A DNA stretch of 64,000 nucleotides from an uncultured Eubacteriales bacterium (GCA_934486705.1 CAKSQS010000005.1:18120-82119); one strand, 5' to 3'; counted from the stretch's first letter, positions 34,906 to 50,952 are shown. Notes: generated by a model not told the origin, from the letters alone. Program-made: numbers and translations.

Positions 34906-36005
34906 ACATTAAAGCGGAAGAGAACAATGTCTCCGTCCTTCATAACATATTCCTTGCCCTCGCTCCTTACAAGTCCCTTTTCCTTCGCAACCGTCATATT
35001 GCCGCCGCATTCGTTTATAAATTCGTCAAAGCCTATTACCTCGGCGCGAATAAAGCCGCGCTCAAAGTCGGAGTGGATTTTGCCCGCCGCCTGCGGCGCT
35101 TTTGTGCCCTGCTTAATAGTCCAGGCGCGCACCTCGGGCTTGCCTGCCGTAAGGTAAGAAATAAGCCCTAAAAGGTGGTAGCACTTTTGAATCATACGGT
35201 CAAGCCCCGAGCGCTCAAGCCCCAATTCCTCAAGGAACATAACCTTTTCTTCATCCGAAAGCCCCGAAATTTCAGCCTCCAGCGCTGCGCATATCGGCAG
35301 AATTTCCGCCTTTTCGCGCTCGGCAATTTCCTTTACCGCATTGTAGTTTTTGTTTGACTCTATGCCCGAGGTAAAGTCCTCCTCGCTCATATTGCAGGCG
35401 TAAATTACGGGCTTTGCCGAAAGCAGCGCCGTGGTATCAAGCACGTTTTGCTCGGTTTCATCGTTAATTTCAACCGAGCGGGCGGGAAGCCCGTTTTCAA
35501 GGTGGGCTATAAGCCTTTTTAAGAAATCAACCTCGCCCTGAAGCGATTTATCTCCCTTAAGCGCCTTTGCGGTTTTATCAAGGCGGCGCTGCGCCATTTC
35601 AATATCCGAAAAAATCAGCTCTAAGTTTATTGTTTCAATATCGCGCGCGGGGTCAACCGAGCCCTCAACGTGAATAATGTCGTCGCTTTCAAAGCAGCGC
35701 ACAACGTGAACTATCGCGTCCACCTCGCGTATGTTGGAAAGAAACTTATTGCCGAGCCCCTCGCCCTTTGAAGCGCCCTTTACAAGCCCCGCAATATCCA
35801 CAAATTCAATAACCGCGGGGGTGAACTTGTCCGGGTTATATATCTCCGCTAATTTTTCGAGCCGCTCGTCCGGCACGCTCACCATTCCTACATTCGGCTC
35901 TATTGTGCAAAAGGGGTAATTCGCCGATTGCGCCCCCGCGTTTGTTATTGCGTTGAAAAGGGTCGATTTGCCTACGTTCGGCAGCCCTACCATTCCTAAT
36001 TTCAT
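34902..36005 (-). CDS. ychF: redox-regulated ATPase YchF
   Basis: [19 protein letters not shown], a TGS domain, and C-terminal [14 protein letters not shown]...[18 protein letters not shown]. Confidence 0.95.
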
Positions 36006-36030
36006 TTATTCCCATATCTCCTTATTTTAT
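35988..36030. repeat. attL core (43-bp direct repeat)
   Basis: TACCATTCCTAATTTCATTTATTCCCATATCTCCTTATTTTAT, identical to 45456-45498. It covers the ychF RBS and codons 1-6. Confidence 0.9.
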
Positions 36031-36059
36031 TAGTGTTCGGGGCGTTTTTATTTGCCCGA

Positions 36060-37262
36060 CTACACCATTTCTACACCATTTTGCAGAAATGAATAGCTTT
36101 CAAATTGATGAACGGCGTTTACAAAAGAATCCTCGGTCACATGCACATATCTGTCCATAGTCATTTGAAGACTTGAATGCCCCAAAAGCCTCTGTAAAAC
36201 CTTCGGCTGCATACCGCTTTCTATCGCCCGTGTTGCGTATGTATGGCGTAAAGCGTGCATACAAAAGCGCTTAATGCCTGCTTCGTCGCACAATTTGTAT
36301 AGATGTGTGTCATATGAGCTGTTTTTTGCAGGTTCGCCCGTTCTCCAATTTATAAATACAAGGTCTTTCATTTCAAGAAAAGATTTCGCCCCGGTATGCC
36401 TGTCAATAAACTCCAATGTCTGCGAAAGCGTTTCGGATGTCTTGCGAGTTTTTGCGGTCTTGTAAATATCCTTTAGAATTTCGTAAGCTTTATCGGTTAA
36501 CGGAATAGTGCGGTAGCTTTGCGGTGTTTTCGGCGGTCCTGCTCTCCAACAGCCTTGACCGTGCCTGTATTCTAAAGTTTTATTAACGGTTAAAGTACGC
36601 TTTTTCCAATTGATAGCATCCCATGTCAGACCGATCAATTCGCCCGTGCGAAGTCCCGTTTCGAGAATAAGCGAATATTGCGCATAATTGTGTGAGCGTT
36701 TTGCGGCTTCTAAAAATTTATGCTGTTCGCTTATTGTAAGATATTTAATATCGTTTACTTCCCGTACAGGTTTGGTGTACCTTACGCCGTTCATAGGGTG
36801 CTTTTCAATTATATCGTTCATCAATGCGGATTTAAGCATAGTTCCCATACAAATATAAGTTTGCCTTATTGTCGAGCCTGCGTAATCGCTGTCCATTTTG
36901 TTTAATACCAATTTGCAGTGCATAGGCTTAACATCTGATAAAAGCATTTTGCCGATAACGGACTGTATATTGAATTTATACCGTTCACGGTAATTCCTTA
37001 CGGTATTTGGGGCTAAATCACCCACAATATTATTTATCCAATATTCAAACCATTCATCAACGGTCATACTTGACGGGGCAAAAATATTGCCGTGCTTATC
37101 TGCATATTTTGAGTCCTCTAACCAGTTGCGAGCTTCCGGAAGAAGCGAAAAACATTTTTCGTGTCTTTTACCTGTTCTGTCAACAAATCTTGCGGTATAT
37201 AATCCGTCCTTTCTTTGGCAAATACCTTTTCCTATTTCTTTTCCTTTAAGGTTTTTACCCAT
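36060..37262 (-). CDS. int: tyrosine-type site-specific integrase
   Basis: ETGLRTGEL (Arg I), HALRHTYAT (H-x-x-R), GHSSLQMTMDRYVH (catalytic Tyr). The ATG at 37262 is preceded by AAAGGAG; the ORF extends to 37304. Confidence 0.92.
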   Translation of the reverse strand: MGKNLKGKEIGKGICQRKDGLYTARFVDRTGKRHEKCFSLLPEARNWLEDSKYADKHGNIFAPSSMTVDEWFEYWINNIVGDLAPNTVRNYRERYKFNIQSVIGKMLLSDVKPMHCKLVLNKMDSDYAGSTIRQTYICMGTMLKSALMNDIIEKHPMNGVRYTKPVREVNDIKYLTISEQHKFLEAAKRSHNYAQYSLILETGLRTGELIGLTWDAINWKKRTLTVNKTLEYRHGQGCWRAGPPKTPQSYRTIPLTDKAYEILKDIYKTAKTRKTSETLSQTLEFIDRHTGAKSFLEMKDLVFINWRTGEPAKNSSYDTHLYKLCDEAGIKRFCMHALRHTYATRAIESGMQPKVLQRLLGHSSLQMTMDRYVHVTEDSFVNAVHQFESYSFLQNGVEMV

Positions 37263-37370
37263 TTTAAAACTCCTTTCTCCAAACGAGAAAAAGAGCCAAT
37301 GCAACTATTATATTATAATGCATCAGCCCTGTTTTTTCAATATAAAACATATAAAATTAATATGACCGTA

Positions 37371-37577
37371 TTAAATTGTTAATTTATTGCTGATGAATTG
37401 CTCAAATTCCTTGCGTTTAACAAGCTTTTTTGTTCCTACATATAACACGAACGGACAATTCGGACTCCGCAGCATACGGTCAATGCGGTTAATACCTATA
37501 TTGCTGTATTCTGCGGCTTCTTTTACTGTCATTGTAAGCTTTATATTAAGCGGTATACCTACATTGCTTTGTTGCAT
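37371..37577 (-). CDS. xis: excisionase-family DNA-binding protein
   Basis: 68 aa. LTMTVKEAAEYSNIGINRIDRML is an HTH_17/Xis(Tn916)-like helix-turn-helix. Located immediately upstream of int. Confidence 0.75.
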   Translation of the reverse strand: MQQSNVGIPLNIKLTMTVKEAAEYSNIGINRIDRMLRSPNCPFVLYVGTKKLVKRKEFEQFISNKLTI

Positions 37578-37596: not shown

Positions 37597-38913
37597 TCAA
37601 TCTTCAAAATAATAAGCCTGGAAAACCGTACCGTCATATAAGATAAATCTGCCTGCGGTATCTTTGGGTATTTGTTCTGCCGCGGCGGTACTGTCGAGTA
37701 TAATCTGTGACAGTATGTTATCGGCTCTGCCGCAAATGCGGCAATCAATATTGTTTCGTATCTGCCCCGAAAGAACGGCGGCGTCAGGTCTTTGCGTTGC
37801 AAGTATCAGATGAATACCGAAAGCCCGCCCCTGTCGGGCTATTACAGATAGCTTACTTTCTATTAAACTTACCCGCTCTTTCTGTTCTTTTGTAAGTCCG
37901 GTTTTATCGAGTACCTCGGCAATTTCATCACAGGCAAATATACAGCGCTTCAGTTCTTTTCCTGTTTGTCGGCAGTATTCGTCTATGTTTCGGCAATTAC
38001 TTTCACGCAATAAGACTTTTCGCCGCTGCAATTCATCAGCAAGCCCGGTCAGCAGCGTTATAAGCTCGTTTTCATCAAAACACATTTTGCAGTTCTCCTG
38101 CCAGGCGGAGGGAAAATCCACTCCGCCCTTAAAATCCGCTATGCTGACCGACATATTTTTCTTTAATGCCTGCATAAGCAATAGCTTTAGCAGAACGCTT
38201 TTACCGCTGCCTGTCGAGCCGCCGAGTAAAATGTGCGGTATTTTTTTCAGATCCACCGTGACCGTTCCCAAAAGGCTTTTACCGAGCACGAGCACGGAAT
38301 TACTGCCTGCAAGATAATTGTCGTTCCACACCATACGCTTTAAAAGGGAATTATCCGCCTGAACCGCATAAAGCATAATTTCCTGTTTATCGCTGCCCTC
38401 TTTCAGATTTACTATATTCAAATTGAGCGCCGCCTCTATTTTTTGCCGTTTGTCTTCCCATTCTTTAAGCGGTATACCTACGCCGTAAAACCGATATACG
38501 GTTACCGAATTGTCTTTTTCGTCCGTTTCCTTTGAAATAAGCATAGGTATTTCTCCGGCGCTGTTTGTAAACCCGATTCGTTTTAACCCGTTTGAAACGG
38601 TTTCGCTGCCGGCAGGAGTGCCGAGCAGTATAAGCACGGCAGGTGCGACGGCAATAATCATTAGGGGAAAGAAAAGCTTTAGCAAAGCGATAAATACAGG
38701 GGAGATAAAGTCCGTCTTTTCAATATCAAAGTAACTTTTGCAGAAAATCCAAAATATTATAACAGCGGCATAAACCGCCAAAATAATATATCTCCCCGAT
38801 TTATTTTCTCTTACAAAATCATATCCGTTTTTAATACGAAGTAATAAATACCGCTTTTGCGTCTGCCTTTTCAGTCGTTCCTTATCATTATCAGTCATAG
38901 AAACCCTCCTCAC
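37597..38913 (-). CDS. FtsK/SpoIIIE-family DNA translocase (coupling-protein-like)
   Basis: N-terminal TM helices, Walker A GGSTGSGKSVLL, Walker B CIFACDEIAE, and ATQRPD. 4-nt overlap with rep. Confidence 0.85.
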   Translation of the reverse strand: MRRVSMTDNDKERLKRQTQKRYLLLRIKNGYDFVRENKSGRYIILAVYAAVIIFWIFCKSYFDIEKTDFISPVFIALLKLFFPLMIIAVAPAVLILLGTPAGSETVSNGLKRIGFTNSAGEIPMLISKETDEKDNSVTVYRFYGVGIPLKEWEDKRQKIEAALNLNIVNLKEGSDKQEIMLYAVQADNSLLKRMVWNDNYLAGSNSVLVLGKSLLGTVTVDLKKIPHILLGGSTGSGKSVLLKLLLMQALKKNMSVSIADFKGGVDFPSAWQENCKMCFDENELITLLTGLADELQRRKVLLRESNCRNIDEYCRQTGKELKRCIFACDEIAEVLDKTGLTKEQKERVSLIESKLSVIARQGRAFGIHLILATQRPDAAVLSGQIRNNIDCRICGRADNILSQIILDSTAAAEQIPKDTAGRFILYDGTVFQAYYFED

Positions 38914-39851
38914 TTGAAATAAATTTCTTCTGTCTGCCCGCCGGCTTTATAAAAGAAAACGCGGTGAATACGGCGTATAAACGCTTTCCATGTTTCGGGG
39001 TGATTGTGCCTGACATCAATATACTGTTCGTTTAAGGGCAGGTTAGAGGTTATATACACCTTTGTATAACACGCGGTGCGGTCGGAATACCGTGCCGGTA
39101 GTGTAAGCGGATATATGTCAAGATAATTAAGCATTGTTTCTATCGGTATTTGAGAATTAAATTCTTCAAAAACCAATATATCCTGCCCGTGGTACGAATC
39201 AAATCGCACACCGTTTTTGCCGTTGTAATCGGTAATTCTGCATATTTCGCTTGCAGGGTGCTTTTTATATATGCCGCTTGTTTTTCCCGTGCCAGACGCT
39301 CCGAACAGATATGTAACGGTAAGCTCTCTGTTTTCGGAACGGTAGCGCTCCGAAAGATATGCCTCGCGCAAAATATCTATATCCTTTAGTTTAAAGGCAA
39401 AAGAGGGCGTTTCGTCTATTATTTCTGTCGTTGATAAACCGTCCTTTACATTGCAAAGCAGCTTATACATTTTCGGTTCGCGCTCCTCACATTCATTCGG
39501 TATATTTCCGAATTCGTAAAAGCTGTCCTTGTGTGAGGTTTCACTCTTTTTATCGTCCGCCCATTTGCCCTCCTTGCGTATATAGTCGCGGTTTTCCTTT
39601 GCGCTGCCGAATGCCTTTTCTATGTGTGCGGTGGGAAAACGGTTTTTAACTGTTGAAAAGCGAATAGGGGATTTAGAGTAAATGAAAATATGGGTATGAA
39701 ATGTTCCTGTTGTTGCCGTTTCGTCCGCCATACAGTAATAATCCGGACAAAACAGATTTAAAATTTTGCGAATACCGTCACGGTCAAGCCCGCAGTCCTG
39801 CGGATTATTGATTGTAAGCGTCCATTTGCGCGATTGCGGATTAGAAGCCAT
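38910..39851 (-). CDS. rep: HUH-endonuclease / SF3-helicase replication-relaxase protein (CRESS-virus-type Rep)
   Basis: Motif I WTLTINNP, motif II HTHIFIY, motif III YIRKEG, Walker A GASGTGKTS, Walker B ILVFEEF, motif C YITSN. Confidence 0.8.
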   Translation of the reverse strand: MASNPQSRKWTLTINNPQDCGLDRDGIRKILNLFCPDYYCMADETATTGTFHTHIFIYSKSPIRFSTVKNRFPTAHIEKAFGSAKENRDYIRKEGKWADDKKSETSHKDSFYEFGNIPNECEEREPKMYKLLCNVKDGLSTTEIIDETPSFAFKLKDIDILREAYLSERYRSENRELTVTYLFGASGTGKTSGIYKKHPASEICRITDYNGKNGVRFDSYHGQDILVFEEFNSQIPIETMLNYLDIYPLTLPARYSDRTACYTKVYITSNLPLNEQYIDVRHNHPETWKAFIRRIHRVFFYKAGGQTEEIYFK

Positions 39852-40470: not shown

Positions 40471-40851
40471 TTACTCGTCTATGGGGCTTCCCAACAGAGG
40501 CAATCCCTCGTCATAAAGGAAGCTGTTTGCTTGATCGATGTTCATTTTCTCGGCTATTATTTTATCCCAGCATTTTAAATAGGGGAATGCGAGACTGAAC
40601 AATTCTTTTGTTTCTTTTGAATCTAACCCTAAAGCCACACAAACGCTCATAACAATGCGGTCTGTAGGCTGATATGTACTGCCTTTATCGTTGCTGTTAC
40701 GGCATATACGGCTTACGGTAGCTCTTGTTAACATACTCTTTCTGATTAAATCAGCTTGTGTCATTTTTTTGATCTTCAGATACTTTTTAACGGAGTCTGA
40801 AAAACTGTTTACTTCTTTGTTGTAGTTGTTGTTTTGCGGGTTAATTGTCAA
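40471..40851 (-). CDS. XRE-family helix-turn-helix regulator
   Basis: KKMTQADLIRKSMLTRATVSRICRN is an HTH_XRE pattern. TTG start. Confidence 0.65.
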   Translation of the reverse strand: MTINPQNNNYNKEVNSFSDSVKKYLKIKKMTQADLIRKSMLTRATVSRICRNSNDKGSTYQPTDRIVMSVCVALGLDSKETKELFSLAFPYLKCWDKIIAEKMNIDQANSFLYDEGLPLLGSPIDE

Positions 40852-40859
40852 TAAGACAA

Positions 40860-41500
40860 CCCCGATTTTCGGTTAACCGATTATTCTGCACTCGGAGGCG
40901 GAGACAAGTTTAAAATATGCCCAAATGCTATGGATACAGAAATACAGTGTATTAACCATGGCACCACCTCCTTCTTAAAAAGGGTGAAAAGTTTATAGGT
41001 TGACTTTCCGCCTCCGGGAGCAAAAACAACAAGTTCTCTCTTGGTAGTGAAAAGAGTACAACAATAATGCTGTACTCTTCCACCTTTTTCTCTTATGGAC
41101 TCACGTATGAGTTTTAACCGTCAGGGCAGACTGCCCCTATACACGGGTTGTAAATGGTCATTTGATATTGCCGTCAGTCCCGATCACGCTAAAGCATGTC
41201 CGACAGCAAGACAGGCGGGGTTTTCCTTGTTCTGCGGGTTGTGCGGAACGATGGATTTCGCCTGGGCCTGTCTCGGCTACTTTCCATTACTAGGCACTAA
41301 AAAACATAAACGGACTCATTACTCAAACCAAAATCATTGCGGACACGCCGCATTATTTCACATCAAACCTTGCACCCTTAGCCTATAACTCCCGAAGTTC
41401 GCACTTTGTCCGTCCTAAAGGCGTCGGGTAGGTCGAAAGCGGTGAGCAAAAAGTGTGGTTCACAGTCTTTTCATTTGCGGTACTAACCCACCGCAAGCAA
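40860..41500 (+). ncRNA. candidate structured non-coding RNA, unclassified
   Basis: A >1.1 kb gap has no credible ORF. Many helices are present, and two of them contain G-U pairs only if transcribed from the plus strand (40891-40902 with 41007-41018; 41229-41235 with 41243-41249). Strand and ends are uncertain. Confidence 0.3.
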
Positions 41501-41740: not shown

Positions 41741-41768
41741 TTTACATTTTTCCTTATTATGGTATAAT
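41741..41768 (+). promoter_or_regulatory. sigma-A type promoter for the cargo genes
   Basis: TTTACA (41741-41746), 16-nt spacer, extended -10 TGGTATAAT (41760-41768). Confidence 0.5.
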
Positions 41769-41982
41769 AAACTCATGATTTATTTTTTGAAAAACAGGTT
41801 TCGATTTATATACAACATAATGCCTATCGTGTTATAATTATAATCGGTGATGGGGTTGTGCTGATATGCTGTTTTTAAGAATCCCAGTTAAAAAGTGATG
41901 AATTTTAACAGGTATTTGTCGATTTGAGAATAAGAGTACTATTTATTATTTTGCAACATAATGGCATTAGTAAAAATAAAAA

Positions 41983-44145
41983 ATGAGGGGAAAAAGCGCA
42001 ATGGATTTTAAGGAAAATATTGATGAAAATTTAAATTGGGAAAAAGTTAATAAAAAAGATGCTCATTTCTCAAAAAATATAACAGATAAATCCGTTTTAA
42101 ATTTTTCCTGTACAGAATGTTCATGGTGTAAATCTAAGCTGATTAAGACACAAAACAAAAACGAATATGAGATGTTTAAAAAATTAATCAAAACTGAAAT
42201 TTTAAACATTCCTTTTGATTTTGCTGCCAAAAGCGAAGAAGCTGCATTTAATAAATTCAAAAAAATGGGATTTCCAATATATAAAAATGAATTACACCTT
42301 CCATTGAGATGTAATTACAGTTATGAAAAACTGTTTGCTCCAAAAAACAATTATAGAATTAAAGGTTCATATCATTTTGAAATAAGCACACAATCAATTG
42401 ATTATTATCCATACTTTAAGGTATGCCCTTGCTGTGGAAATGATGTTTATTCAGCAAATGAAGAGATTGAGAAACTTGAGAAAATGGAATATGATAAACT
42501 AATAACCAAATATAAATCGAAAGCTGAAAAATTCAATTCCAAAATTGATTTATCTAAATTTGATATTTGTGGCTATTTAGGGACTTTAGTTGAATTATAT
42601 AAGGAATCATATATTCTTGAAAAACAAATTAAGAGTTTAATTATTGAAAAACATTCCTGTCGAAAAGAAAGCCTCATAGTTAAGACGGCATATATTAATG
42701 CTAACAGAGATAAGAATATTTCTTGTCAATACATTGCTGCCGAGAAAAAGTTAAATGAGCTTCAAGCTGAAAAGGCAAATGGGATTTTATTATCTTCAAT
42801 TGAAAAAAATGCTGCTTGGGAAACATTTCTAGCTAATGACGATGAATGGAATATTTTGACAGTCAAAACGCCGATTGAGCCAGTTAAACCCGAAGAACCA
42901 ACTGCTCCTGAAAAACCAATAAAAGTACAGCCTGCCCCTATAAATTTTGATATGACGCGATTAATCGAGCCTACAGAACCTAATTATTTGCAAGGTAATT
43001 TTTTTAATAAGAGGAGGATTACAAAACAAAACACAGAATTAAAACTCAATTATGAGAGGGCAATAGAAGATTATAAAACTTCATGTCAAGAATATGAAAA
43101 AGCATTAGCTGAATACAAAAAGTTATGTAATGATGCTGATAGGAATTATCGGGTTTCATTAGAAAAATACAATCAAGATCAGATTACTTATACAAATAAT
43201 TATAATGAATTTCTTAACAAAACAAATTTATACTTGATTGAAAAAGCAAAGTATGAGGAGGAAATGAACAATTACAATACAAAATTAAAGAAAATTGAAA
43301 TTCTATCACAGCGCATAGACGATAAAAAGAAAGAAATCTATGAAAAGGCATTACAGAATAAAATCAAACGGATATCTAATGAAGAGGCTGAATTGATTAA
43401 AATTTTAAATGATTTTGATGCAGAATTAAGGGCAAAACTTGAAAAAGAAACATCAGAATTGCCGAAAAAAATTGCTAACGATACTATGGTGAAGTTTTTA
43501 GATGTTGAGACGGCAAATTTGATAAAAGATTTGTTTGAAATTTATGCCGCTATCGATGAATTAAAATCACTTAATGTAATATATCCAAAATACACTGAAT
43601 TTTCTACATTGTGTACCTTGTATGAATATTTTTTGTCGGGGCGAACAAATGAACTTGCTGGACCTCAGGGCGCTTACAATTTATATGAAAGTGAAAAAAG
43701 AGCAGATAATATCATTAATAAATTAGATATAATCAATTACAAATTGGATGACATTTTAAATGAATTAAATGAAGTAAAAAACAACCAAGTTCTTTTATAC
43801 TCAACAATGAAAGAGATAAAAAAGGGAGTGGATAAGCTTAATAGTAATATTTCAAATATGGTTGTTGAAATGGAAGAAATTGGGGATGATTTAATATCTC
43901 ATAAAGATTCTGTAAATTTAAATAGTGATTCGGTTTCTTCAAAATCGAAGCTGCCAACTTCGATAACTTCGCTTTCCTCATATTTGGCGTTGTCATCTTT
44001 TATGGATTCACAAAGGCAATCATTTAATTCTACTGTTAAACAGGCCAGTGTAATAAAAAGAGGAATAGCAGGTGGATTGATAGCCGGACCTGCAGGTGCT
44101 ATTGTTGGTGCACTGAGTGCAGTTGACAAAAATAGAAGAAATTAA
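41983..44145 (+). CDS. large coiled-coil protein with an N-terminal Cys-cluster domain and a C-terminal glycine-zipper membrane helix; unknown function
   Basis: 720-aa ORF in a very AT-rich stretch. It contains CTECSWC...CPCCG, a Pro-rich linker PIEPVKPEEPTAPEKPIKVQPAP, long Lys/Glu/Asn-rich helical regions, and C-terminal GIAGGLIAGPAGAIVGALSAV. The start may be the ATG at 42001 (MDFKE). Confidence 0.7.
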   Translation: MRGKSAMDFKENIDENLNWEKVNKKDAHFSKNITDKSVLNFSCTECSWCKSKLIKTQNKNEYEMFKKLIKTEILNIPFDFAAKSEEAAFNKFKKMGFPIYKNELHLPLRCNYSYEKLFAPKNNYRIKGSYHFEISTQSIDYYPYFKVCPCCGNDVYSANEEIEKLEKMEYDKLITKYKSKAEKFNSKIDLSKFDICGYLGTLVELYKESYILEKQIKSLIIEKHSCRKESLIVKTAYINANRDKNISCQYIAAEKKLNELQAEKANGILLSSIEKNAAWETFLANDDEWNILTVKTPIEPVKPEEPTAPEKPIKVQPAPINFDMTRLIEPTEPNYLQGNFFNKRRITKQNTELKLNYERAIEDYKTSCQEYEKALAEYKKLCNDADRNYRVSLEKYNQDQITYTNNYNEFLNKTNLYLIEKAKYEEEMNNYNTKLKKIEILSQRIDDKKKEIYEKALQNKIKRISNEEAELIKILNDFDAELRAKLEKETSELPKKIANDTMVKFLDVETANLIKDLFEIYAAIDELKSLNVIYPKYTEFSTLCTLYEYFLSGRTNELAGPQGAYNLYESEKRADNIINKLDIINYKLDDILNELNEVKNNQVLLYSTMKEIKKGVDKLNSNISNMVVEMEEIGDDLISHKDSVNLNSDSVSSKSKLPTSITSLSSYLALSSFMDSQRQSFNSTVKQASVIKRGIAGGLIAGPAGAIVGALSAVDKNRRN

Positions 44146-44178
44146 ATAATAAAACTTAAGTGTAGAGGAAGAGAAAAA

Positions 44179-44826
44179 ATGTATCCAATAAATAATATTC
44201 AGGGAATATATAAACAGGAAAGCGAATTAGAAGGTAATCATGTAATAATTTTACTTCTTGTAAAGCCATCTGATACAGGTGCAGATGATTATATAAAAAA
44301 GTTCAATTATTTACACTATCGTTCTAAACGGTACTGCTCGATATATTTGCTTGGATACTCACAGGATTTTCAAGGAAAATACATAGATGCCATTTCTGTA
44401 CAAGGTATAGACCATCAAAAATGGCAATATAGCGATCAATGTTTTTCTGACGCATGCGATGAATTACAAAACCGCTTGTCAAACTGGCACTATTCCGGTG
44501 AGCCAGAAATGATTATTTTGCAGAATAGTTCGAATTCGGATTCAAAGAAATGTTTGAATTTTACAAATTATAATTACATAGATATCAACTATGGTATTGA
44601 AAAACAATACATCGATAGCTTCCCGCGCTTTATGGAAAGACTAATTCAGTCTTGTAAAAATGAAGTCACAGCGGTTGAAGCAATTACTTCAGCCAATAGA
44701 AAGCGCATAAGTCCAAGAAAAGTTATGGAATATGCGATAGAAGAATGCCCTCGCTTACCGCGCCCTGTCAGAAGTATTCTTAAAGACAAATTGTTTTATA
44801 AATCATGTAAAAACAAAGTGGCATAA
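44179..44826 (+). CDS. hypothetical protein, partner of the 720-aa cargo protein
   Basis: 215-aa ORF 33 nt downstream with RBS GAGGAAGAG and the same AT-rich composition. No motif recognised. Confidence 0.65.
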   Translation: MYPINNIQGIYKQESELEGNHVIILLLVKPSDTGADDYIKKFNYLHYRSKRYCSIYLLGYSQDFQGKYIDAISVQGIDHQKWQYSDQCFSDACDELQNRLSNWHYSGEPEMIILQNSSNSDSKKCLNFTNYNYIDINYGIEKQYIDSFPRFMERLIQSCKNEVTAVEAITSANRKRISPRKVMEYAIEECPRLPRPVRSILKDKLFYKSCKNKVA

Positions 44827-45206
44827 TTTGACTTATAATTTGCAATCAAGCAGTAATGCTTGAAATAAAAACTAAGGAGGAACCTTTATGAAAGTGTTAT
44901 CATTAGTAATCTTGGTGACTCTCTTGGTGTTGTAGTGTGCGAAAGCCATTACAAAAATCAAGGGAGTCCCGACCCCTGGTTGGGTAGAGATATTGATAAG
45001 CATCCTCGCCGTAGTAAAATATGGCTTGAAGTTGCTGTCCTTGACTCTCTCTCAATTTTAAGGGTAGGTCTGAACGGCCTAGGGGCACTGCTTTTCAGCG
45101 GTGTCCTAAATTAATGCATTATGAATCTAATATAGCGATGTGGCAAAAAATAATTTTGCCAAGAGCACAAGCGGTAGGGTAGCATTTGCAATTAAATAAA
45201 CTATTT

Positions 45207-45250
45207 AAAAAGCGAGAATTTACTAAAAGTTGTAGATTCTCGCTTTTTAT
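45207..45250. terminator. bidirectional rho-independent terminator after the cargo
   Basis: AAAAGCGAGAAT pairs with ATTCTCGCTTTT (45207-45219 with 45236-45248), A-run before and T-run after. Confidence 0.7.
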
Positions 45251-45455
45251 TACTGATTCAATAAATATTGCTGCATAGGCTCTTTTTTCGTTTTTAAGAT
45301 AAACCTTACTTCACCATTTACTACACCATTTTGGTGTGGACTTGCATAGAGAAATATAAAGATGTATTAAAGTGATTTTTTTAAAACCCGCGGTACTATC
45401 GGGTTTTATGAGATTTTAAGGAGTTATAGGGACATATGAAACGCGGTTCGGCAAT
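45243..45455. mobile_element. relic of a related element end (degenerate att-flank plus integrase 3' end fragment)
   Basis: 45310-45333 (TCACCATTTACTACACCATTTTGG) matches the integrase stop region at 36060-36084. CGTTTTTA and CTTTTTATTACTGATTC resemble the attL-proximal flank. Confidence 0.4.
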
Positions 45456-45498
45456 TACCATTCCTAATTTCATTTATTCCCATATCTCCTTATTTTAT
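45456..45498. repeat. attR core (43-bp direct repeat)
   Basis: Identical to 35988-36030. Confidence 0.9.
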
Positions 45499-45680
45499 AA
45501 GTATTTGATTATTGTAATATATACAGCTTTTCTGAAAATACGAAAAGAGCTGATACGACTTTTATATTATAGCGCATCAGCTCTTCTTTTTCAATATAAA
45601 TAAGTTTAATTTGTTTTTGCGGCGGGGAATAAATAAAAAAACGGGCGAATGCGGAACGGGTTCTGATTTTTTGAGGTATT
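45499..45680. mobile_element. relic of a second related element (int-xis intergenic homolog, integrase deleted)
   Basis: 45541-45610 (CGAAAAGAGCTGATACGACTTTTATATTATAGCGCATCAGCTCTTCTTTTTCAATATAAA) aligns with 37283-37345 between int and xis. Confidence 0.4.
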
Positions 45681-46230: not shown

Positions 46231-47637
46231 TTAAAGGGCAATATCCTCGGCGGGGGTGGTGTTTATAAAATCGGGCAGAGTGTTTTTAACGCGCTCATAA
46301 TACCCCTGCTCCCAAAAAAGACATTTTGCGGGGTCAATGCCCAATTTATTGTTTGTAAGCGCCAAAGCGATAGCGCGGCAGCCGCCGAGACAGTGCTCAA
46401 AGTATTTGCATTTCCCGCATTTATCGTTCTTTTCGCGGAGCGTGCCGACCGTCAGGCAGACTTCATCTAAATATTTGCCGCCGCAGAGCAGCTCGCGCAG
46501 CGGCTCTTTTTTTAGATTGCCCGGAATATCGTTATGCTGCTCATAATAGCCCGATTGCTGGTGGCAGGGGAAAACGTTTCCGTTTGCCGCTACGGCTATC
46601 ATTCCGCGGTTTCCGCGGCACACGGGCAGGCTGTCGCGGTATTCGCCGCTGCATGCGCCCACCGCCGCAAGGGAGTAATGCCGTGTTACGGGGTACAGCG
46701 TGCCGAACTGCCACACGGTAAGTACCATTTTGTGTTTTCCCGCGGCATAAGCTTTCCAAAGCTTTAAGGCTTCTTCGTAATATTCATTAAGCGATAATGC
46801 GGCGTTGCCCGCGTTCTGCACCCAGCGCGGCGCCTCTGTTGTGCGTATTATGCGCATTTCGGAAACACCCATACTGTCAAGTAACTCGGCGGTTTTAAGC
46901 ATTGTGTCAAGGTTTTTTCGGTTCACGTTCGTTTGCACCTTAACGGGAAAACCGTTTTCTATGCAAAGCTTTATTGCATTAAGCGCGTTTTCCTCAGCGC
47001 CTTCGCGGTTGCGCATCCAGTCGTGAAAGCCCAGCCCGTCAAAGGAAATTTTCATAAGCGGAACGCAGCCGATTTTTTTAAGCCTTTCAAGAGCGGCGGC
47101 GGTTATGTAATAGCCGTTTGTGTTAATTTCCTCAACAAACATATTACGTTTATAAATCCCCTCAATAATATCAAAGAAATTTTTGTGCAGCATAGGCTCG
47201 CCGCCGGTTATTGTAAAGGCGTTTATTCCGCAGTCATACGCCTCGTCAAGCAGCTTTTCCGCCTCTTCTGCCGTCCACTCGCTTTGCAGCGGCGCATTAT
47301 CCGCCGCGTTAAAGCAGTGAAGACAGTTGTAATTGCACTTGCCGGTTATCATCCAGTTCATAGCGGGAAAATAGCGGTTATCGCAAAGCCGCGGTCTGCT
47401 CCACGGTTCTGTCTCCTCGCCATCTTCCGCTATGCGTATAAAGCCGTTTGCAAGAAATTTTTCGGCAAGCGGGCTGTCCGCAGCGCTCGGTAATTCTGTT
47501 TTTCCGTCGCAAGCGGATAAAAAGTCAAATTCTTCGCCCTTAAGCCCGCACGCGTTGCGCTCGCCCTTTATGTAATAGGCAAAGGGTACAAGCCGCCATG
47601 AGCGCAGGGCAATATTCGGATTTAATACATAATGCAT
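46231..47637 (-). CDS. radical SAM/SPASM-domain peptide maturase
   Basis: CX3CX2C motif GKCNYNCLHCF, GGEPML, and C-terminal auxiliary-cluster Cys (CSGEY...CRGN...FPCH...CGKCKYFEHCLGGCRA). Confidence 0.9.
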   Translation of the reverse strand: MHYVLNPNIALRSWRLVPFAYYIKGERNACGLKGEEFDFLSACDGKTELPSAADSPLAEKFLANGFIRIAEDGEETEPWSRPRLCDNRYFPAMNWMITGKCNYNCLHCFNAADNAPLQSEWTAEEAEKLLDEAYDCGINAFTITGGEPMLHKNFFDIIEGIYKRNMFVEEINTNGYYITAAALERLKKIGCVPLMKISFDGLGFHDWMRNREGAEENALNAIKLCIENGFPVKVQTNVNRKNLDTMLKTAELLDSMGVSEMRIIRTTEAPRWVQNAGNAALSLNEYYEEALKLWKAYAAGKHKMVLTVWQFGTLYPVTRHYSLAAVGACSGEYRDSLPVCRGNRGMIAVAANGNVFPCHQQSGYYEQHNDIPGNLKKEPLRELLCGGKYLDEVCLTVGTLREKNDKCGKCKYFEHCLGGCRAIALALTNNKLGIDPAKCLFWEQGYYERVKNTLPDFINTTPAEDIAL

Positions 47638-47651
47638 AGCTGTAACCTTAC

Positions 47652-47675
47652 AGGCCGCCGAAAAAACGGCAGCCT
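47652..47675 (-). promoter_or_regulatory. stem-loop between the last precursor gene and the maturase gene
   Basis: The minus strand reads AGGCUGCCG-UUUUUU-CGGCGGCCU, 9 bp with one U-G that pairs only on the minus strand. No U-tract follows. Confidence 0.5.
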
Positions 47676-47705
47676 GCTTTCCTTTATGAGTATTGGGCGA
47701 TAGGC

Positions 47706-48086
47706 TTACTTTTTACTGTTTTCATAGTTCTCACAGTACATTATTGCACCTACCGATTTAGAATAATAGCAGCTCGGGCAATAGGAGTTGCGCAGGCAGG
47801 TTTCGTCCCTGTTGCCGTTTTTATGGTCGCGCCCGCACTGAGTACATTCAAATTTATCGCAGGAGTGGCGCGAGGTAACTATAAGCTTGCCCTCTATATT
47901 GTAGCATCCGCCGCCCGATACGTTATCAAGCTCTTCATCGGAAAGCTCGCCCGCCTTCGGGTGCAAAAGCTCAAAATATGCCTTTGCGCCGTCGAGTGTC
48001 ATTTCTTCGCCGTTTTCTTTTGCAAGACACAGCAATTCTTCAGGAGTTTTTGCAGCTTTCGCTTTTGAAATAAGTTCACTGTTCAT
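47706..48086 (-). CDS. Nif11-type leader / Cys-rich core precursor peptide 1 (most divergent core)
   Basis: The leader MNSELISKAKAAKTPEELLCLAKENGEEM...ELSDEELDNVSGGG is followed by a core with 8 Cys. Confidence 0.85.
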   Translation of the reverse strand: MNSELISKAKAAKTPEELLCLAKENGEEMTLDGAKAYFELLHPKAGELSDEELDNVSGGGCYNIEGKLIVTSRHSCDKFECTQCGRDHKNGNRDETCLRNSYCPSCYYSKSVGAIMYCENYENSKK

Positions 48087-48088
48087 TT

Positions 48089-48502
48089 TTATAATTTCCT
48101 CCCGTATTCGGTATTGGGGTTATTGCAAAGCCACAGGCCTCTTTCATACGAGCAATACTTGCAGTATTCGCACCAGGTTACATTTCCGCAATTTCTGCAT
48201 ACCCGGCGGTACGGGAAAACCGAGGTTTCAACCGTATCCTTTGCGCAGCCGTTTTTGCACTGCCAATCCCAGCAGCGGAATCGCGTGGTAACAACAAGTC
48301 TGCCGCTGTTGTAGCAGTTGCCGCCCGATACATTGTCAAGCTCTTCGTCTGCAATTTCGCCCGTCTTCGGGTGCAAAAGCTCAAAATATGCCTTTGCGCT
48401 CTCTTCGGTCATTTCTTCGCCGTTAGTCTTTGCCATTTCAAGTAATTCTTCGGGGGTTTCAGCCGTTTTCGCCTTGGCAATCAGTTCTTTGTTTATTTCC
48501 AT
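48089..48502 (-). CDS. Nif11-type leader / Cys-rich core precursor peptide 2
   Basis: The leader ends DEELDNVSGG. The core has 10 Cys and ends CEYCKYCSYERGLWLCNNP. Confidence 0.85.
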   Translation of the reverse strand: MEINKELIAKAKTAETPEELLEMAKTNGEEMTEESAKAYFELLHPKTGEIADEELDNVSGGNCYNSGRLVVTTRFRCWDWQCKNGCAKDTVETSVFPYRRVCRNCGNVTWCEYCKYCSYERGLWLCNNPNTEYGRKL

Positions 48503-48521
48503 TTTAATGCACTCCGTTCGT

Positions 48522-48917
48522 CTAATTTTTTCGGTGATTGCTTTTGTTGCAAAGCCACAATCCTTTTTCGTATGTGCAGTATTTGCAGTTGTTACATACT
48601 GTCAAGCGGCCGCATTTGCATATCCCGACACTGACTGCATTTTTATTGATTTGAGTGCCGCATTTTTTACACTCAAAACCCGTACAGCCGTGACCGACGG
48701 TCACAATTTCTCTGCCGTCATCTGCATGACATCCGCCGCCCGAAACGTTTTCAAGCTCTTCATCGGCAATTTTGCCGGTCTTCGGGTGCAAAAGTTCAAA
48801 ATATGCTTTTGCGCTCTCCTCGGTCATTTCCTCGCCGTTTTCCTTTGCAAGACATAGCAGCTCTTCGGGGGTTTTTGCTTTCTTTGCTTTTGATATAAGC
48901 TCTTTGTTCATTTCCAT
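48522..48917 (-). CDS. Nif11-type leader / Cys-rich core precursor peptide 3
   Basis: MEMNKELISKAKKAKTPEELL...ENVSGGG, then core CHADDGREIVTV...CNNCKYCTYEKGLWLCN. Start set at the ATG at 48917, preceded by AAGGGTGA; the ORF extends to 48926. Confidence 0.85.
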   Translation of the reverse strand: MEMNKELISKAKKAKTPEELLCLAKENGEEMTEESAKAYFELLHPKTGKIADEELENVSGGGCHADDGREIVTVGHGCTGFECKKCGTQINKNAVSVGICKCGRLTVCNNCKYCTYEKGLWLCNKSNHRKN

Positions 48918-48935
48918 AATTATCACCCTTTTATA

Positions 48936-49328
48936 TTATTTTTTCATTCTGGCGGGGTTGTTGCAGAGCCACAGACCCTTTTCATATGTGCAGTAGTGGC
49001 AGGTGTTGCAAAACGCGCCGATTCCGCATGTATTGCAGTATACCATCGCACCGTATATATCGCATTGCGAGCCATCGGTTTTGCAGCGCCATTCGTCGCA
49101 GTAATTCATTACGGAAACAACAAGTCTGTCGCCCTTGTAACATCCGCCGCCCGCTACATTGTCAAGCTCTTCGTCTGCAATTTCGCCCGTCTTCGGGTGT
49201 AAAAGCTCAAAATATGCCTTTGCGCTCTCCTCGGTTATTTCTTCGCCGTTTTCTTTTGCAAGACATAGCAGTTCTTCGGGAGTTTTTGCCTGTTTCGCCT
49301 TTGCTATAAGTTCGTTATTCAGTTGCAT
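48936..49328 (-). CDS. Nif11-type leader / Cys-rich core precursor peptide 4
   Basis: The true start is MQLNNELIAKAK at 49328. The track ORF (to 49502) runs in-frame into the 3' end of the next gene. The core is CYKGDRLVVS...CNTCHYCTYEKGLWLCNNP. Confidence 0.85.
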   Translation of the reverse strand: MQLNNELIAKAKQAKTPEELLCLAKENGEEITEESAKAYFELLHPKTGEIADEELDNVAGGGCYKGDRLVVSVMNYCDEWRCKTDGSQCDIYGAMVYCNTCGIGAFCNTCHYCTYEKGLWLCNNPARMKK

Positions 49329-49347
49329 ATCAATGCGCTCCGTTCGT

Positions 49348-49743: not shown

Positions 49744-49754
49744 AATTTAACTCC

Positions 49755-50138: not shown

Positions 50139-50156
50139 AATTATCACCCTATTATA

Positions 50157-50534: not shown

Positions 50535-50561
50535 TTTAAAACTCTCCGTTCGCATTATTTT

Positions 50562-50939: not shown

Positions 50940-50952
50940 TTTAAAAATCCTC

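What the first reader, a model, noticed from the sequence alone, without database searches (positions are those of the whole stretch)
41741..44826. Very AT-rich two-gene cargo module of unknown function: candidate novel membrane-acting (defence/abortive-infection-like) system
This stretch is visibly far more AT-rich than the rest of the element and the host flanks. That judgement is by eye and was not computed.

It has its own extended -10 promoter (TTTACA-16-TGGTATAAT, 41741-41768) and its own terminator (45207-45250).

**Gene 1 (720 aa)** has:
- an N-terminal domain with CTECSWC ... CPCCG (ribbon-like);
- a Pro-rich linker;
- several hundred residues of Lys/Glu/Asn-rich predicted coiled coil;
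- a Ser-rich segment;
- a single C-terminal glycine-zipper helix, GIAGGLIAGPAGAIVGALSAV, followed by KNRRN. This is a tail-anchor of a type often seen in pore-forming or membrane-disrupting effectors.

**Gene 2 (215 aa)** follows after 33 nt and has no motif I can recognise.

Accessory cargo at the distal end of IMEs and ICEs is a typical location for anti-phage or exclusion systems. I recognise no described defence family with this architecture, so this may be the undescribed system in the window. The functional assignment is inference only.
Basis: inference. Interest (0 to 1): 0.7.

Follow-up and report, generated by a model that had tools for sequence, protein, structure and literature searches.

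The report
Mobile-element cargo: two unlinked orphan genes
The AT-rich gene pair is real and rides on a small integrated mobile element, but the two genes are not a conserved team. The second belongs to an unnamed protein family that keeps turning up inside bacterial anti-virus gene clusters; the first is a membrane-anchored protein from a large unnamed family carried by mobile elements.

Summary
**Observation: confirmed.**
- Both ORFs, the low GC (0.29 and 0.34, against 0.42 for the element backbone and 0.46–0.47 for the host), the promoter-like site, the terminator hairpin and the gene 1 motifs are all present.
- The stretch is the cargo arm of a 9.5-kb integrase/Xis/FtsK/Rep element. It is bounded by about 60-bp direct repeats at the 5' end of ychF.

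**Interpretation as a dedicated two-gene system: not supported.**
- The pair occurs only in near-identical copies of this one element.
- 0 of 89 loci with gene 1 relatives carry a gene 2 relative. 0 of 54 loci with gene 2 relatives carry a gene 1 relative.

**Gene 2**
- It is a soluble protein with a thioredoxin-like fold and no CxxC motif. Its family has at least 253 clusters and no Pfam, PADLOC or NCBIfam model.
- It moves as its own cassette of about 0.95 kb.
- It is repeatedly nested in type I R-M operons or sits beside TIR, Shedu, AbiH, AbiJ, KAP, GmrSD and SIR2 genes. That makes it a credible new defence-associated candidate by guilt-by-embedding.

**Gene 1**
- It is a tail-anchored zinc-ribbon/coiled-coil protein. 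Its superfamily is very large and undescribed (1,921 cluster representatives at E ≤ 1e-10).
- Relatives are mostly linked to mobile elements, with no clear defence enrichment.

No function has been shown for either gene.

The parts
35976..36038 (.). attL: left copy of the direct repeat bounding the element, overlapping the 5' end of ychF
   Evidence: About 60-bp repeat, 43 bp exact (35988-36030 = 45456-45498). The same junction is seen in L067.
36060..37304 (-). Tyrosine integrase of the element (called as 400 aa in other copies)
   Evidence: Pfam Phage_integrase 6e-30 and Phage_int_SAM_3; gene calls.
37371..37577 (-). Excisionase-like 68-aa ORF
   Evidence: ORF. The same gene in L067-L070 is tagged Tn916-Xis (weak).
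37597..38913 (-). FtsK/SpoIIIE-type ATPase (putative coupling/translocation protein)
   Evidence: Pfam FtsK_SpoIIIE 1.3e-14.
38910..39851 (-). Rep protein (Viral_Rep-type HUH domain plus helicase-like P-loop)
   Evidence: Pfam Viral_Rep 1.7e-11.
40471..40851 (-). HTH (Cro/C1-type) regulator of the element
   Evidence: Pfam HTH_26/HTH_3.
41741..41768 (+). Promoter-like site with extended -10 (TTTACA-16-TGgTATAAT) upstream of gene 1
   Evidence: 11/12 matches with TG. Not statistically distinctive in this AT-rich DNA.
42001..44145 (+). Gene 1: tail-anchored zinc-ribbon/coiled-coil protein. 714 aa from ATG 42001, or 720 aa from the alternative upstream ATG at 41983.
42118..42435 (+). Gene 1 N-terminal α/β domain held by a split 4-Cys site (C46, C49 ... 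C148, C151 in 720-aa numbering)
   Evidence: These four Cys are invariant in the family alignment A2. The CxxCG...CPxC consensus also holds across the superfamily. AF2 pLDDT is 60-80.
42868..42987 (+). Gene 1 Pro-rich linker ending in the conserved EPxY...FNKK(K/R) motif
   Evidence: P330, P333, F341, N342 and N350 are nearly invariant across 125 superfamily members.
43480..43902 (+). Gene 1 conserved superfamily domain (…IYPKY…YEYFxSGR…GPxGAYNLYESE…KLD…IKNNQ)
   Evidence: This is the best-scoring stretch for most of the 2,906 hits (1,921 at E ≤ 1e-10) in the exhaustive profile search. No Pfam model covers it.
44062..44124 (+). Gene 1 C-terminal glycine-zipper helix GIAGGLIAGPAGAIVGALSAV (putative tail anchor), flanked by VIKR and DKNRRN
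   Evidence: It is the only hydrophobic segment (KD 1.67). phrog_17658 matches it at 5.6e-5. Homologues carry a faint PF27000 PH_gly_zipper tag.
44179..44826 (+). Gene 2: soluble 215-aa protein with a CxxC-less thioredoxin-like fold and a helical C-terminal part
44160..45115 (+). Portable 'gene 2 cassette': gene 2 plus about 290 nt of conserved 3' sequence. It is shared at 76-78% nt identity with otherwise unrelated loci, and nothing of gene 1 is shared.
   Evidence: blastn boundaries against L001 and L071; alignment A7.
44888..44935 (+). 15-codon hydrophobic mini-ORF (MKVLSLVILVTLLVL) with an AAGGAGG RBS
   Evidence: It is conserved with substitutions in L001 (MKMLSLAVSVTLLGL) and L071 (MKVLSLVILATLLVL). 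It is absent near distant gene 2 homologues.
44959..44978 (+). Core of a nearly invariant non-coding block in the cassette's 3' region
   Evidence: It matches exactly in all 16 loci of the three context types and nowhere else in the window or the other loci. There is no Rfam family.
45083..45107 (+). Hairpin closing the conserved cassette (GGGGCACTGC-loop-GCGGTGTCC)
   Evidence: Compensatory changes in L001 and L071 keep the stem. With only three sequences, this is weak support.
45206..45249 (+). Intrinsic terminator of the cargo transcription unit
   Evidence: 18-bp stem, ΔG -24 kcal/mol, z = -8.2, then a U-run.
45445..45506 (.). attR: right copy of the direct repeat. It carries a duplicate of the ychF 5' end.

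Best explanation
**What the stretch is.** The stretch is the cargo arm of a 9.5-kb integrative mobilizable element (int-xis-ftsK-rep-HTH) inserted at the 5' end of ychF. It carries two unrelated genes that were acquired independently. They are probably co-transcribed here, from the 41.74-kb promoter to the 45.2-kb terminator, but they are not a conserved functional pair.

**Gene 2.**
- It is a self-contained, horizontally mobile cassette of about 0.95 kb.
- It encodes a soluble thioredoxin-fold protein that has lost the CxxC redox site.
- Its family lives in defence loci. Members are nested between hsdS and hsdR of type I R-M operons, or abut TIR, Shedu, AbiH, AbiJ, KAP-NTPase, GmrSD and SIR2 genes.
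- I therefore read it as a stand-alone anti-phage/anti-MGE defence gene or a defence-accessory gene.
- Inferred, not shown: it uses the former thioredoxin active-site pocket to bind a ligand or protein rather than to do redox chemistry. That pocket would be conserved K29-P30-x-D32 next to the W103-x-Y-S-G-E-P loop.

**Gene 1.**
- It belongs to a very large, undescribed Bacillota family of zinc-ribbon/coiled-coil proteins.
- In this subfamily the protein is tethered to the cytoplasmic face of the membrane by a C-terminal glycine-zipper helix.
- Relatives are typically carried by integrative elements.
- Its role is unknown. My best guess is a membrane-associated function that benefits the element, such as exclusion or abortive infection, acting independently of gene 2.
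For: **Shown: the element.**
- att repeats.
- Backbone domains.
- The same element at 97.8% nt identity over 9.7 kb, at the same site, in other samples. This includes contigs of about 9.47 kb.

**Shown: no conserved pairing.**
- Gene 1 homologues P0104, P0105 and P0106 (37-49% identity) have other neighbours.
- 0 of 89 gene 1-superfamily loci hold a gene 2 relative, and 0 of 54 gene 2 loci hold a superfamily member.

**Shown: gene 2 is its own unit.**
- Nucleotide homology to L001 and L071 runs from 44160 to 45115 or 44985 and excludes gene 1.
- Gene 2 homologues are lower in GC than their flanks in 25 of 35 loci, with a median difference of -0.074.
- The family has at least 253 clusters, all about 210-230 aa, with no domain fusions.

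**Shown: gene 2 is associated with defence loci.**
- It is embedded between hsdS and hsdR in L035, L036, L048, L049 and L057, and adjacent to hsd genes in L018 and L060. HsdR identity is confirmed at 1e-38, and MTase_I and Specificity_I are confirmed by PADLOC.
- Immediate neighbours are GmrSD_N+HNH, ResIII+RE_endonuc, KAP_NTPase, AbiJ_NTD4, AbiH, TIR_2, SIR2_2 and SLFN_AlbA_2, SduA_C and TIR_2 proteins.
- By my tally, 13 clear and 4 arguable cases among 47 species-level loci have a defence gene within ±2 genes.
- Internal contrast: ±2-gene neighbours of gene 2 relatives hit 363 PADLOC models in 128 proteins. Neighbours of gene 1-superfamily members hit 27 in 116.

**Shown: the fold of gene 2.**
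- AF2 pLDDT 88.5 and pTM 0.88.
- The best PDB and viral matches are thioredoxins, but only at E about 0.06-0.1.
- There is no CxxC.

**Precedent from the literature.**
- Genes embedded in type I R-M operons have been validated as defences. TgvAB is one example (PMC11411939).
- 'Guilt-by-embedding' is described in bioRxiv 10.1101/2024.01.29.577857. That paper also reports a validated defence protein, HEC-07, with a CxxC-less thioredoxin-like domain.

**Shown: gene 1.**
- 2,906 cluster representatives share its C-terminal domain.
- Neighbours are enriched for integrases, recombinases and HTH regulators.
- Relatives are almost absent from viral contigs, sequenced phages and plasmids.
Against: - No function was tested. 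The defence role of gene 2 rests on genomic association only.
- I did not compute a proper genome-wide background. The '13-17 of 47' figure is a hand tally from ORFs I called myself.
- Some gene 2 homologues sit beside ABC exporters with two-component systems, or beside housekeeping genes (L012, L013, L023, L030, L033).
- In the clade closest to the window copy, gene 2 always follows a DUF6273/TIR protein. It could therefore be an accessory of that operon rather than an autonomous gene.
- In every copy of this element the pair is fixed, 33 nt apart, with no terminator between. A functional link that is specific to this element cannot be excluded.
- The gene 1 structure model is only moderate (pLDDT 63.6, with the C-terminal third below 50).
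- Gene 1's membrane insertion is inferred from one borderline-hydrophobic helix.
Confidence: 0.6

Rival explanations
1. Gene 2 is a conserved sensor or regulator that pairs with interchangeable membrane-tethered zinc-ribbon effectors: TIR NADases in most genomes, and the glycine-zipper protein here. On that view the window pair is a genuine two-component abortive-infection system, with gene 1 as a membrane-disrupting effector.
For: - The pair is fixed, 33 nt apart and under one promoter and terminator in all copies of the element.
- The closest gene 2 relatives sit next to ZnR-TPR-TIR-TM proteins. These share gene 1's overall layout: N-terminal zinc ribbon, helical region, single TM.
- One gene 1-superfamily member is embedded among such TIR proteins in L147.
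- The glycine-zipper tail matches phage protein families.
Against: - There is no co-occurrence beyond this one element lineage: 0 of 89 and 0 of 54 loci. Gene 1's own homologues at 37-49% identity lack gene 2.
- Profile-profile comparison finds no homology between gene 1 or its superfamily and the TIR partners (probability below 5%).
- The shared cassette boundary excludes gene 1.
- Many gene 2 homologues have no membrane zinc-ribbon neighbour at all, for example those inside hsd operons.
- Neighbours of the gene 1 superfamily show little defence signal.
Confidence: 0.12
2. Gene 2 is not a defence effector itself. It is an accessory (regulator, chaperone or immunity-like factor) of toxic effector proteins, primarily the Band_7/TIR-DUF6273 operons where its closest relatives live. 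The copy on this element is an orphan passenger captured together with its 3' region.
For: - All four contexts in the 72-79% identity clade, and two in the roughly 60% clade, place gene 2 directly beside TIR and/or DUF6273 proteins.
- It is small and soluble, has no recognisable catalytic motif and has a protein-binding type of fold.
- It is never fused to an effector domain.
Against: - More distant members sit beside a wide range of unrelated, self-sufficient systems: type I and III R-M, Shedu, AbiH, AbiJ, KAP and SIR2. That is hard to reconcile with a dedicated partner.
- In the window and in several loci no TIR or DUF6273 gene is nearby.
Confidence: 0.18
3. Neither gene is immune-related. 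Gene 1 serves the element's own biology at the membrane, for example transfer, entry exclusion or segregation scaffolding. Gene 2 is a generic hitch-hiking gene whose presence in variable islands simply reflects where mobile cassettes accumulate.
For: - Gene 1-superfamily neighbours are mainly integrases, recombinases and regulators.
- Gene 2 homologues are compositionally foreign. Some lie next to transposases or recombinases (L015; Pseudoalteromonas island) or non-defence genes (L012, L013, L030).
Against: - Operonic embedding between hsdS and hsdR in at least 5 species is a specific pattern that has predicted real defences before.
- The PADLOC contrast of 363 against 27 models argues against a generic 'variable island' effect, because gene 1 relatives also live in variable regions.
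Confidence: 0.1

Closest known systems
Defence candidates found by 'guilt-by-embedding' in type I R-M, BREX, DISARM and Hma loci (Payne et al. 2024, bioRxiv 10.1101/2024.01.29.577857), with TgvAB (PMC11411939) and PrrC as validated examples
   Same: Gene 2 homologues are nested, tightly spaced and co-oriented between hsdS and hsdR. They often sit alongside other embedded genes such as AbiJ or a KAP NTPase. They also occur outside R-M operons, as many embedded systems do.
   Different: - Gene 2 matches none of the PADLOC v2.0.0 models, including the PDC candidate models.
- It has no nuclease, NTPase or other effector domain.
- No phenotype is known.
Thioredoxin-fold superfamily, including the CxxC-less thioredoxin-like domain of the validated defence protein HEC-07
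   Same: The N-terminal part of gene 2, about 130 residues, has thioredoxins as its best structural matches. It lacks the CxxC motif, like the HEC-07 domain.
   Different: - The matches are weak: E about 0.06-0.1, TM about 0.5 on the target and about 0.3 on the query.
- There is no sequence similarity to any solved structure.
- Gene 2 has an extra helical C-terminal half.
- It is a stand-alone protein, whereas HEC-07 fuses the domain to an AdoMetDC-like domain and a RelE-like RNase.
Glycine-zipper membrane proteins (Pfam PF27000 PH_gly_zipper; phrog_17658 and phrog_20110)
   Same: The last roughly 35 residues of gene 1 match these families (faint PF27000 tags). They carry repeated small-xxx-small spacing.
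   Different: - Only the terminal helix matches.
- The 680-residue cytoplasmic part (zinc-ribbon domain, coiled coil, YEYxxSGR/GAYNLYESE domain) is unrelated to those families.
- Most superfamily members have a different, non-zipper C-terminus.
Membrane-tethered ZnR-TPR-TIR-TM-DUF6273 proteins of gut Clostridia. These are the usual neighbours of gene 2's closest relatives, and some are diversified by a DGR.
   Same: Gene 1 has a similar overall layout: N-terminal zinc ribbon, long helical region, single membrane helix. It also occupies the same position, immediately upstream of gene 2.
   Different: - There is no detectable homology (hhalign probability below 5%).
- Gene 1 has no TIR domain and no extracellular domain.
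- Its membrane helix is at the extreme C-terminus.
Small integrative mobilizable elements of Bacillota with tyrosine integrase, Xis, an FtsK-like ATPase and a Rep protein.
   Same: The element has int, xis, ftsK-like, rep and HTH genes, about 60-bp att repeats, site-specific insertion at a conserved gene end and a cargo arm distal to int.
   Different: - The cargo consists of two families with no annotation.
- No relaxase or oriT was identified here, and I did not look for them further.

Membership tests
Conserved two-gene system (gene 1 + gene 2) | The two genes co-occur as neighbours across independent lineages | tested here: not met
   The pair is found only in roughly 98%-identical copies of one element. 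0 of 89 and 0 of 54 loci co-occur. Gene 1 homologues P0104-P0106 lack gene 2.
Conserved two-gene system (gene 1 + gene 2) | The two genes are inherited or transferred as one unit | tested here: not met
   Nucleotide homology to other loci starts at 44160, which is 19 nt before the gene 2 start, and excludes gene 1.
Known anti-phage defence systems (PADLOC-DB v2.0.0, including PDC candidates) | A significant match to a system's protein model | tested here: not met
   Gene 2 has no hit at E ≤ 1. Gene 1 has only PbeC at E = 0.025, in the coiled-coil region. Newer DefenseFinder models were not available.
Defence-island / embedded defence candidate (gene 2) | Recurrent location inside or next to known defence systems in unrelated genomes | tested here: met
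   - Embedded between hsdS and hsdR in 5 species-level loci and adjacent to hsd genes in 2 more.
- Next to TIR, Shedu, GmrSD, type III R-M, AbiH, AbiJ, KAP, SIR2 and Schlafen-like genes.
- No genome-wide background was computed.
Defence-island / embedded defence candidate (gene 2) | Experimental protection against phage or mobile DNA | not testable with these tools
   This needs cloning and challenge assays.
Thioredoxin family | Thioredoxin fold (β-α-β ... β-β-α core) | tested here: inconclusive
   The AF2 model is confident. The top Foldseek hits are all thioredoxins, but at E 0.06-1 with partial coverage.
Thioredoxin family | CxxC redox motif at the N-terminus of helix 1 | tested here: not met
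   The family alignment has K-P-S/x-D at that position. The only conserved Cys is C53, in strand 2.
Glycine-zipper membrane proteins (PF27000 / phrog_17658) | A terminal helix with repeated GxxxG-like spacing that matches the family profile | tested here: met
   phrog_17658 matches residues 682-717 at E = 5.6e-5. The small-xxx-small ladder is seen. The PF27000 tag is only faint and only on homologues, and that model is not in the local Pfam copy.
Glycine-zipper membrane proteins (PF27000 / phrog_17658) | Membrane insertion and pore or disruption activity | not testable with these tools
   Only one borderline hydropathy peak supports insertion (KD 1.67). The AF2 confidence of this region is below 50.
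Integrative mobilizable element | A site-specific recombinase, flanking direct repeats, and replication/translocation genes, with the same unit found at the same site elsewhere | tested here: met
Type I toxin-antitoxin (for the mini-ORF at 44888-44935) | A small hydrophobic peptide gene with an overlapping or convergent antisense RNA | tested here: inconclusive
   - The mini-ORF and its RBS are conserved in three contexts.
- Minus-strand promoter-like and terminator-like sites exist.
- The putative antisense fold is not better than shuffles (z = -1.5), and 15 aa is very short for such a toxin.
- There are no expression data.

The most novel reading that the evidence does not exclude
The gene 2 family may be a new anti-phage/anti-MGE immune component that works by a non-redox thioredoxin-fold mechanism.
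- It could act as a single-gene system. In the window's clade it would come with the conserved 15-residue hydrophobic peptide and the structured 3' RNA.
- Or it could be a universal adaptor that plugs into diverse effectors, including DGR-diversified transmembrane TIR receptors and, on this element, the glycine-zipper protein.
Probability: 0.2. Interest if true: 0.7.

Novelty: new variant of a known kind. Interest (0 to 1): 0.42.

Why it matters
**If gene 2 is a working defence gene.**
- It would add a compact immune component with no nuclease or NTPase domain to the repertoire of gut Bacillota. Defence in these organisms is poorly charted, and phage-bacterium dynamics there matter for microbiome ecology.
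- It would give another positive case for prediction by guilt-by-embedding.
- Its link to transmembrane TIR proteins whose extracellular domain is hypermutated by a DGR points to a receptor-like sensing system that is worth studying in its own right.

**Gene 1.** It flags a very large protein family, about 2,000-2,900 clusters at 50% identity, that no domain database describes.

**The negative result.** Adjacency on one mobile element is not evidence of a system.

Tried and rejected
**Family and structure searches that gave nothing useful**
- Pfam, NCBIfam, PADLOC and PHROGs scans of both proteins: no meaningful hit except the glycine-zipper tail.
- Sequence-profile searches of the PDB with A1, A2 and A4: only coiled-coil noise, plus a non-significant 'integron cassette protein' hit at E = 0.13.
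- Foldseek of the gene 1 model: generic coiled coils only.

**Searches of sequence collections**
- Rfam on 40.8-46.3 kb: nothing. No tRNA at the insertion site.
- megablast and tblastn against plasmid and phage collections: nothing, except one distant gene 2 relative in a Pseudoalteromonas island.
- Viral-contig scans: 4 loci for the gene 1 superfamily, 0 for gene 2 and 0 for the element's Rep.
- A search for copies of the element with alternative cargo, using an exact Rep look-up: all copies carry the same cargo.
- Source names for gene 1-superfamily members: none.

**Hypotheses rejected or left unsupported**
- Gene 1 is homologous to the ZnR-TPR-TIR partners of gene 2: rejected by hhalign.
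- Gene 2 is a PIN-like nuclease. This was prompted by one JGI label, 'predicted nucleic-acid-binding protein'. It is not supported by fold search or motifs.
- Gene 2 is a DGR accessory gene. It follows the RT in only one context type and is present in the sister locus without a DGR.
- An antisense RNA acts on the mini-ORF: fold not significant.

Full report

Yes.
- Gene 1 (41983-44145, +) and gene 2 (44179-44826, +) are intact ORFs 33 nt apart.
GC is 0.28-0.35 across 42-45 kb against about 0.45-0.50 elsewhere. Gene 1 is 0.294, gene 2 is 0.336, the element backbone is 0.417 and the host flanks are 0.461 and 0.470.
- The extended -10 promoter-like site at 41741-41768 is found with 11 of 12 matches plus TG. 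Such sites are frequent in this AT-rich DNA, however (36 found against 25.3 ± 5.3 in shuffles), and another good one lies at 44123-44150 just before gene 2.
- The terminator is a strong 18-bp hairpin at 45206-45249 (ΔG -24 kcal/mol, z = -8.2) followed by a U-run.

There are two corrections.
- The start of gene 1 is probably the ATG at 42001, giving 714 aa. It has a GAGGGG RBS, and it agrees with gene calls in other copies and with the homologues' N-termini.
- Only four cysteines are invariant in the family: C46, C49, C148 and C151. This suggests a single zinc site clamping an α/β domain of about 100 residues.

**2. What is the surrounding element?**

- Upstream on the minus strand lie a tyrosine integrase, a 68-aa Xis-like ORF, an FtsK/SpoIIIE ATPase, a Viral_Rep-type Rep and an HTH regulator.
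- A direct repeat of about 60 bp (43 bp exact) at 35976-36038 and 45445-45506 bounds a 9.5-kb unit inserted at the 5' end of ychF.
- The same unit, 97.8% identical over 9.7 kb, sits at ychF in another metagenome with a different right flank. It is also recovered as contigs of about 9.47 kb in independent samples.
The AT-rich DNA beyond 45.5 kb is host sequence.

**3. Are the two genes a system?**

- Every copy with an identical Rep carries the same cargo, so those copies are one lineage and count as one observation.
- The three more distant gene 1 homologues (37-49% identity) have other neighbours: an HTH_3 protein, an unrelated 206-aa ORF, or opposite-strand genes at the edge of another FtsK/HTH-bearing element.
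- Gene 2 has at least 253 homologous clusters. In 54 loci carrying a relative there is no gene 1-superfamily member. In 89 loci carrying a gene 1-superfamily member there is no gene 2 relative.
- Nucleotide homology between the window and loci carrying 77%-identical gene 2 proteins begins at 44160, 19 nt before the gene 2 start. It runs about 290 nt past the stop and excludes gene 1.

Gene 2 therefore travels as its own cassette of about 0.95 kb.

**4. Gene 2**

*Family and fold.*
- No Pfam, NCBIfam, PADLOC or PHROG model matches, and no solved structure is related by sequence.
- The AF2 model is confident (pLDDT 88.5, pTM 0.88).
- The N-terminal part, about 130 residues, resembles thioredoxins, but only weakly (E about 0.06-0.1). 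A helical C-terminal half follows.
- The CxxC position is occupied by a conserved K-P-x-D. Other near-invariant residues (W103, Y105, S106, G107, E110) lie in the loop that corresponds to the thioredoxin cis-Pro loop.
- That these two loops form one pocket is my inference from thioredoxin topology. I did not measure it on coordinates.
- The protein is soluble. The family is uniformly 210-230 aa, with no domain fusions.

*Genomic context.*
- Among species-level genome loci, which are mostly gut or rumen Clostridia, gene 2 relatives are nested between hsdS and hsdR in five loci (L035, L036, L048, L049, L057). They are adjacent to hsd genes in two more (L018, L060).
- In those operons gene 2 is co-oriented with gaps of a few to tens of nucleotides. 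It often sits next to another embedded gene, such as AbiJ or a KAP NTPase.
- Other immediate neighbours are GmrSD+HNH with a type III R-M, AbiH, SIR2_2, TIR_2, Schlafen/AlbA_2, AAA_21, PLD-like and DUF4238 proteins, and a Shedu SduA_C nuclease.
- By my tally, 13 clear and 4 arguable cases among 47 loci have a defence gene within two genes.
- I did not compute a genome-wide background. As an internal contrast, ±2-gene neighbours of gene 2 relatives hit 363 PADLOC models in 128 proteins. Neighbours of gene 1-superfamily members hit 27 in 116.
- Gene 2 homologues are also lower in GC than their flanks in 25 of 35 loci, and the family is absent from viral contigs, phages and plasmids.

*Precedent.*
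- Genes embedded in type I R-M operons have repeatedly proved to be defences. TgvAB is one example (PMC11411939). The 'guilt-by-embedding' screen of Payne et al. is another.
- The candidate models from that screen are in the PADLOC database that gene 2 failed to match. The family therefore looks like a new candidate.
- That paper also reports a validated defence protein, HEC-07, with a CxxC-less thioredoxin-like domain. This is a resemblance only.

**5. The closest clade of gene 2**

- All four contexts at 72-79% identity, and two at about 60%, place gene 2 directly beside proteins with this layout: N-terminal zinc ribbon, TPR-like helices, TIR domain, one TM helix and an extracellular domain, often DUF6273. 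In one context the neighbour has only a DUF6273 hit.
- These usually lie in an operon that starts with a Band_7_1 (SPFH) protein.
- In L073 the DUF6273 end is a true DGR target.
Profile-profile comparison finds no homology between gene 1 or its superfamily and these TIR proteins (probability below 5%). The diversity of neighbours in more distant members also argues against a dedicated partner. I keep it as a minority rival.

**6. Gene 1**

- The word-index search was swamped by low-complexity sequence and found only four relatives.
- An exhaustive profile search then found 2,906 cluster representatives (1,921 at E ≤ 1e-10). Most are 500-700 aa long.
- They share an N-terminal CxxCG...CPxC ribbon, a Pro-rich 'EPxY..GLFNKKK' segment, a coiled coil and a conserved 'YEYxxSGR...GPxGAYNLYESE...KLD...IKNNQ' domain.
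- No Pfam model covers this domain, no source names any member and no solved structure is related.
- The glycine-zipper tail is specific to the small subfamily that includes gene 1. Other members end in a different helix, or carry N-terminal TM helices instead (L148). The conserved domain is therefore probably a cytoplasmic, membrane-proximal module.
- Neighbours are mainly integrases, recombinases and HTH/WYL regulators, with occasional prophage-like or TIR/DUF6273 contexts. The PADLOC signal is low.
- The AF2 model is moderate (pLDDT 63.6), and Foldseek returns only coiled coils.
- I cannot assign a function. Membrane tethering by the C-terminal helix is inferred from one borderline hydropathy peak and a match to phage glycine-zipper families. 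Pore formation is speculation.

**7. Verdict**

- The 'cargo of an IME', 'no known family' and 'defence-like' elements of the interpretation are partly right. The 'two-gene system with a membrane effector' is not supported.
- The most defensible statement is that the element carries two independent orphan genes. Gene 2 is a credible, previously unlisted defence-associated candidate. Gene 1 is a member of a large uncharacterised family borne by mobile elements.
- Nothing here demonstrates function. The decisive experiments are simple cloning and challenge assays with each gene alone and with both together.

Noticed in passing
L073:3597-8648 (also L071, L001-L004, L011, L170-L172; outside the window): A recurrent operon in gut Clostridia runs: Band_7_1 (SPFH) protein, a TM protein of about 232 aa, a ZnR-TPR-TIR-TM-DUF6273 protein, then a gene 2 homologue. 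In L073 the DUF6273 3' end is a true DGR target. VR is at 5928-6052 and TR at 6634-6758, between bAvd and the RT, and 17 of the 20 mismatches fall on TR adenines. This is a transmembrane protein with a cytoplasmic TIR domain and a hypermutated extracellular domain, a Toll-like-receptor-like layout.
   Followed up: partly
window 44888-45107: The conserved 3' part of the gene 2 cassette holds three things. One is a 15-codon hydrophobic mini-ORF (MKVLSLVILVTLLVL) with a strong RBS. Another is a nearly invariant non-coding block (core 44959-44978) that is more conserved than the coding sequence. The third is a closing hairpin (45083-45107) with compensatory changes. Minus-strand promoter-like (45146-45118) and terminator-like (44978-44959) sites give a layout like a type I toxin-antitoxin, but the antisense fold is not significant. 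There is no Rfam match.
   Followed up: partly
window 35976-36038 and 45445-45506: These are the att repeats of the 9.5-kb element at the 5' end of ychF. Independent samples yield contigs of about 9,475 bp that match the element's length, which could be the excised circular form or an assembly break at the repeats.
   Followed up: partly
window 41095-41500: A GC-richer non-coding stretch of about 400 nt lies between the element's HTH gene and the gene 1 promoter. It contains only a mechanical 97-aa ORF. It has no Rfam match, and it could be an oriT/ori or regulatory region of the element.
   Followed up: no
window 46231-51429 (- strand): The host flank has a radical-SAM/SPASM enzyme (46231-47637). 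It is followed by a run of about nine ORFs of 125-190 aa (47706-51429), the first of which is Cys-rich with a GGG motif. This looks like a RiPP maturase with an array of precursor-like genes.
   Followed up: no
L147:732-11178 and L148:3509-6902: A gene 1-superfamily member is embedded among three ZnR-TIR/DUF6273 paralogues in L147. A short member with N-terminal TM helices sits next to a tandem-DUF6273 surface protein in L148. These are the only indirect links between the gene 1 superfamily and the usual neighbourhood of gene 2.
   Followed up: partly
L159:8872-9591 (Pseudoalteromonas sp. Bsw20308 pPBSW1): This is a distant gene 2 relative in a gammaproteobacterium: 31% identity over the thioredoxin-like domain, 239 aa, annotated hypothetical. 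It lies in an island with a tyrosine recombinase, IS91 and other transposases, and DUF2971 and DUF3658 proteins. The family therefore reaches beyond Bacillota.
   Followed up: no
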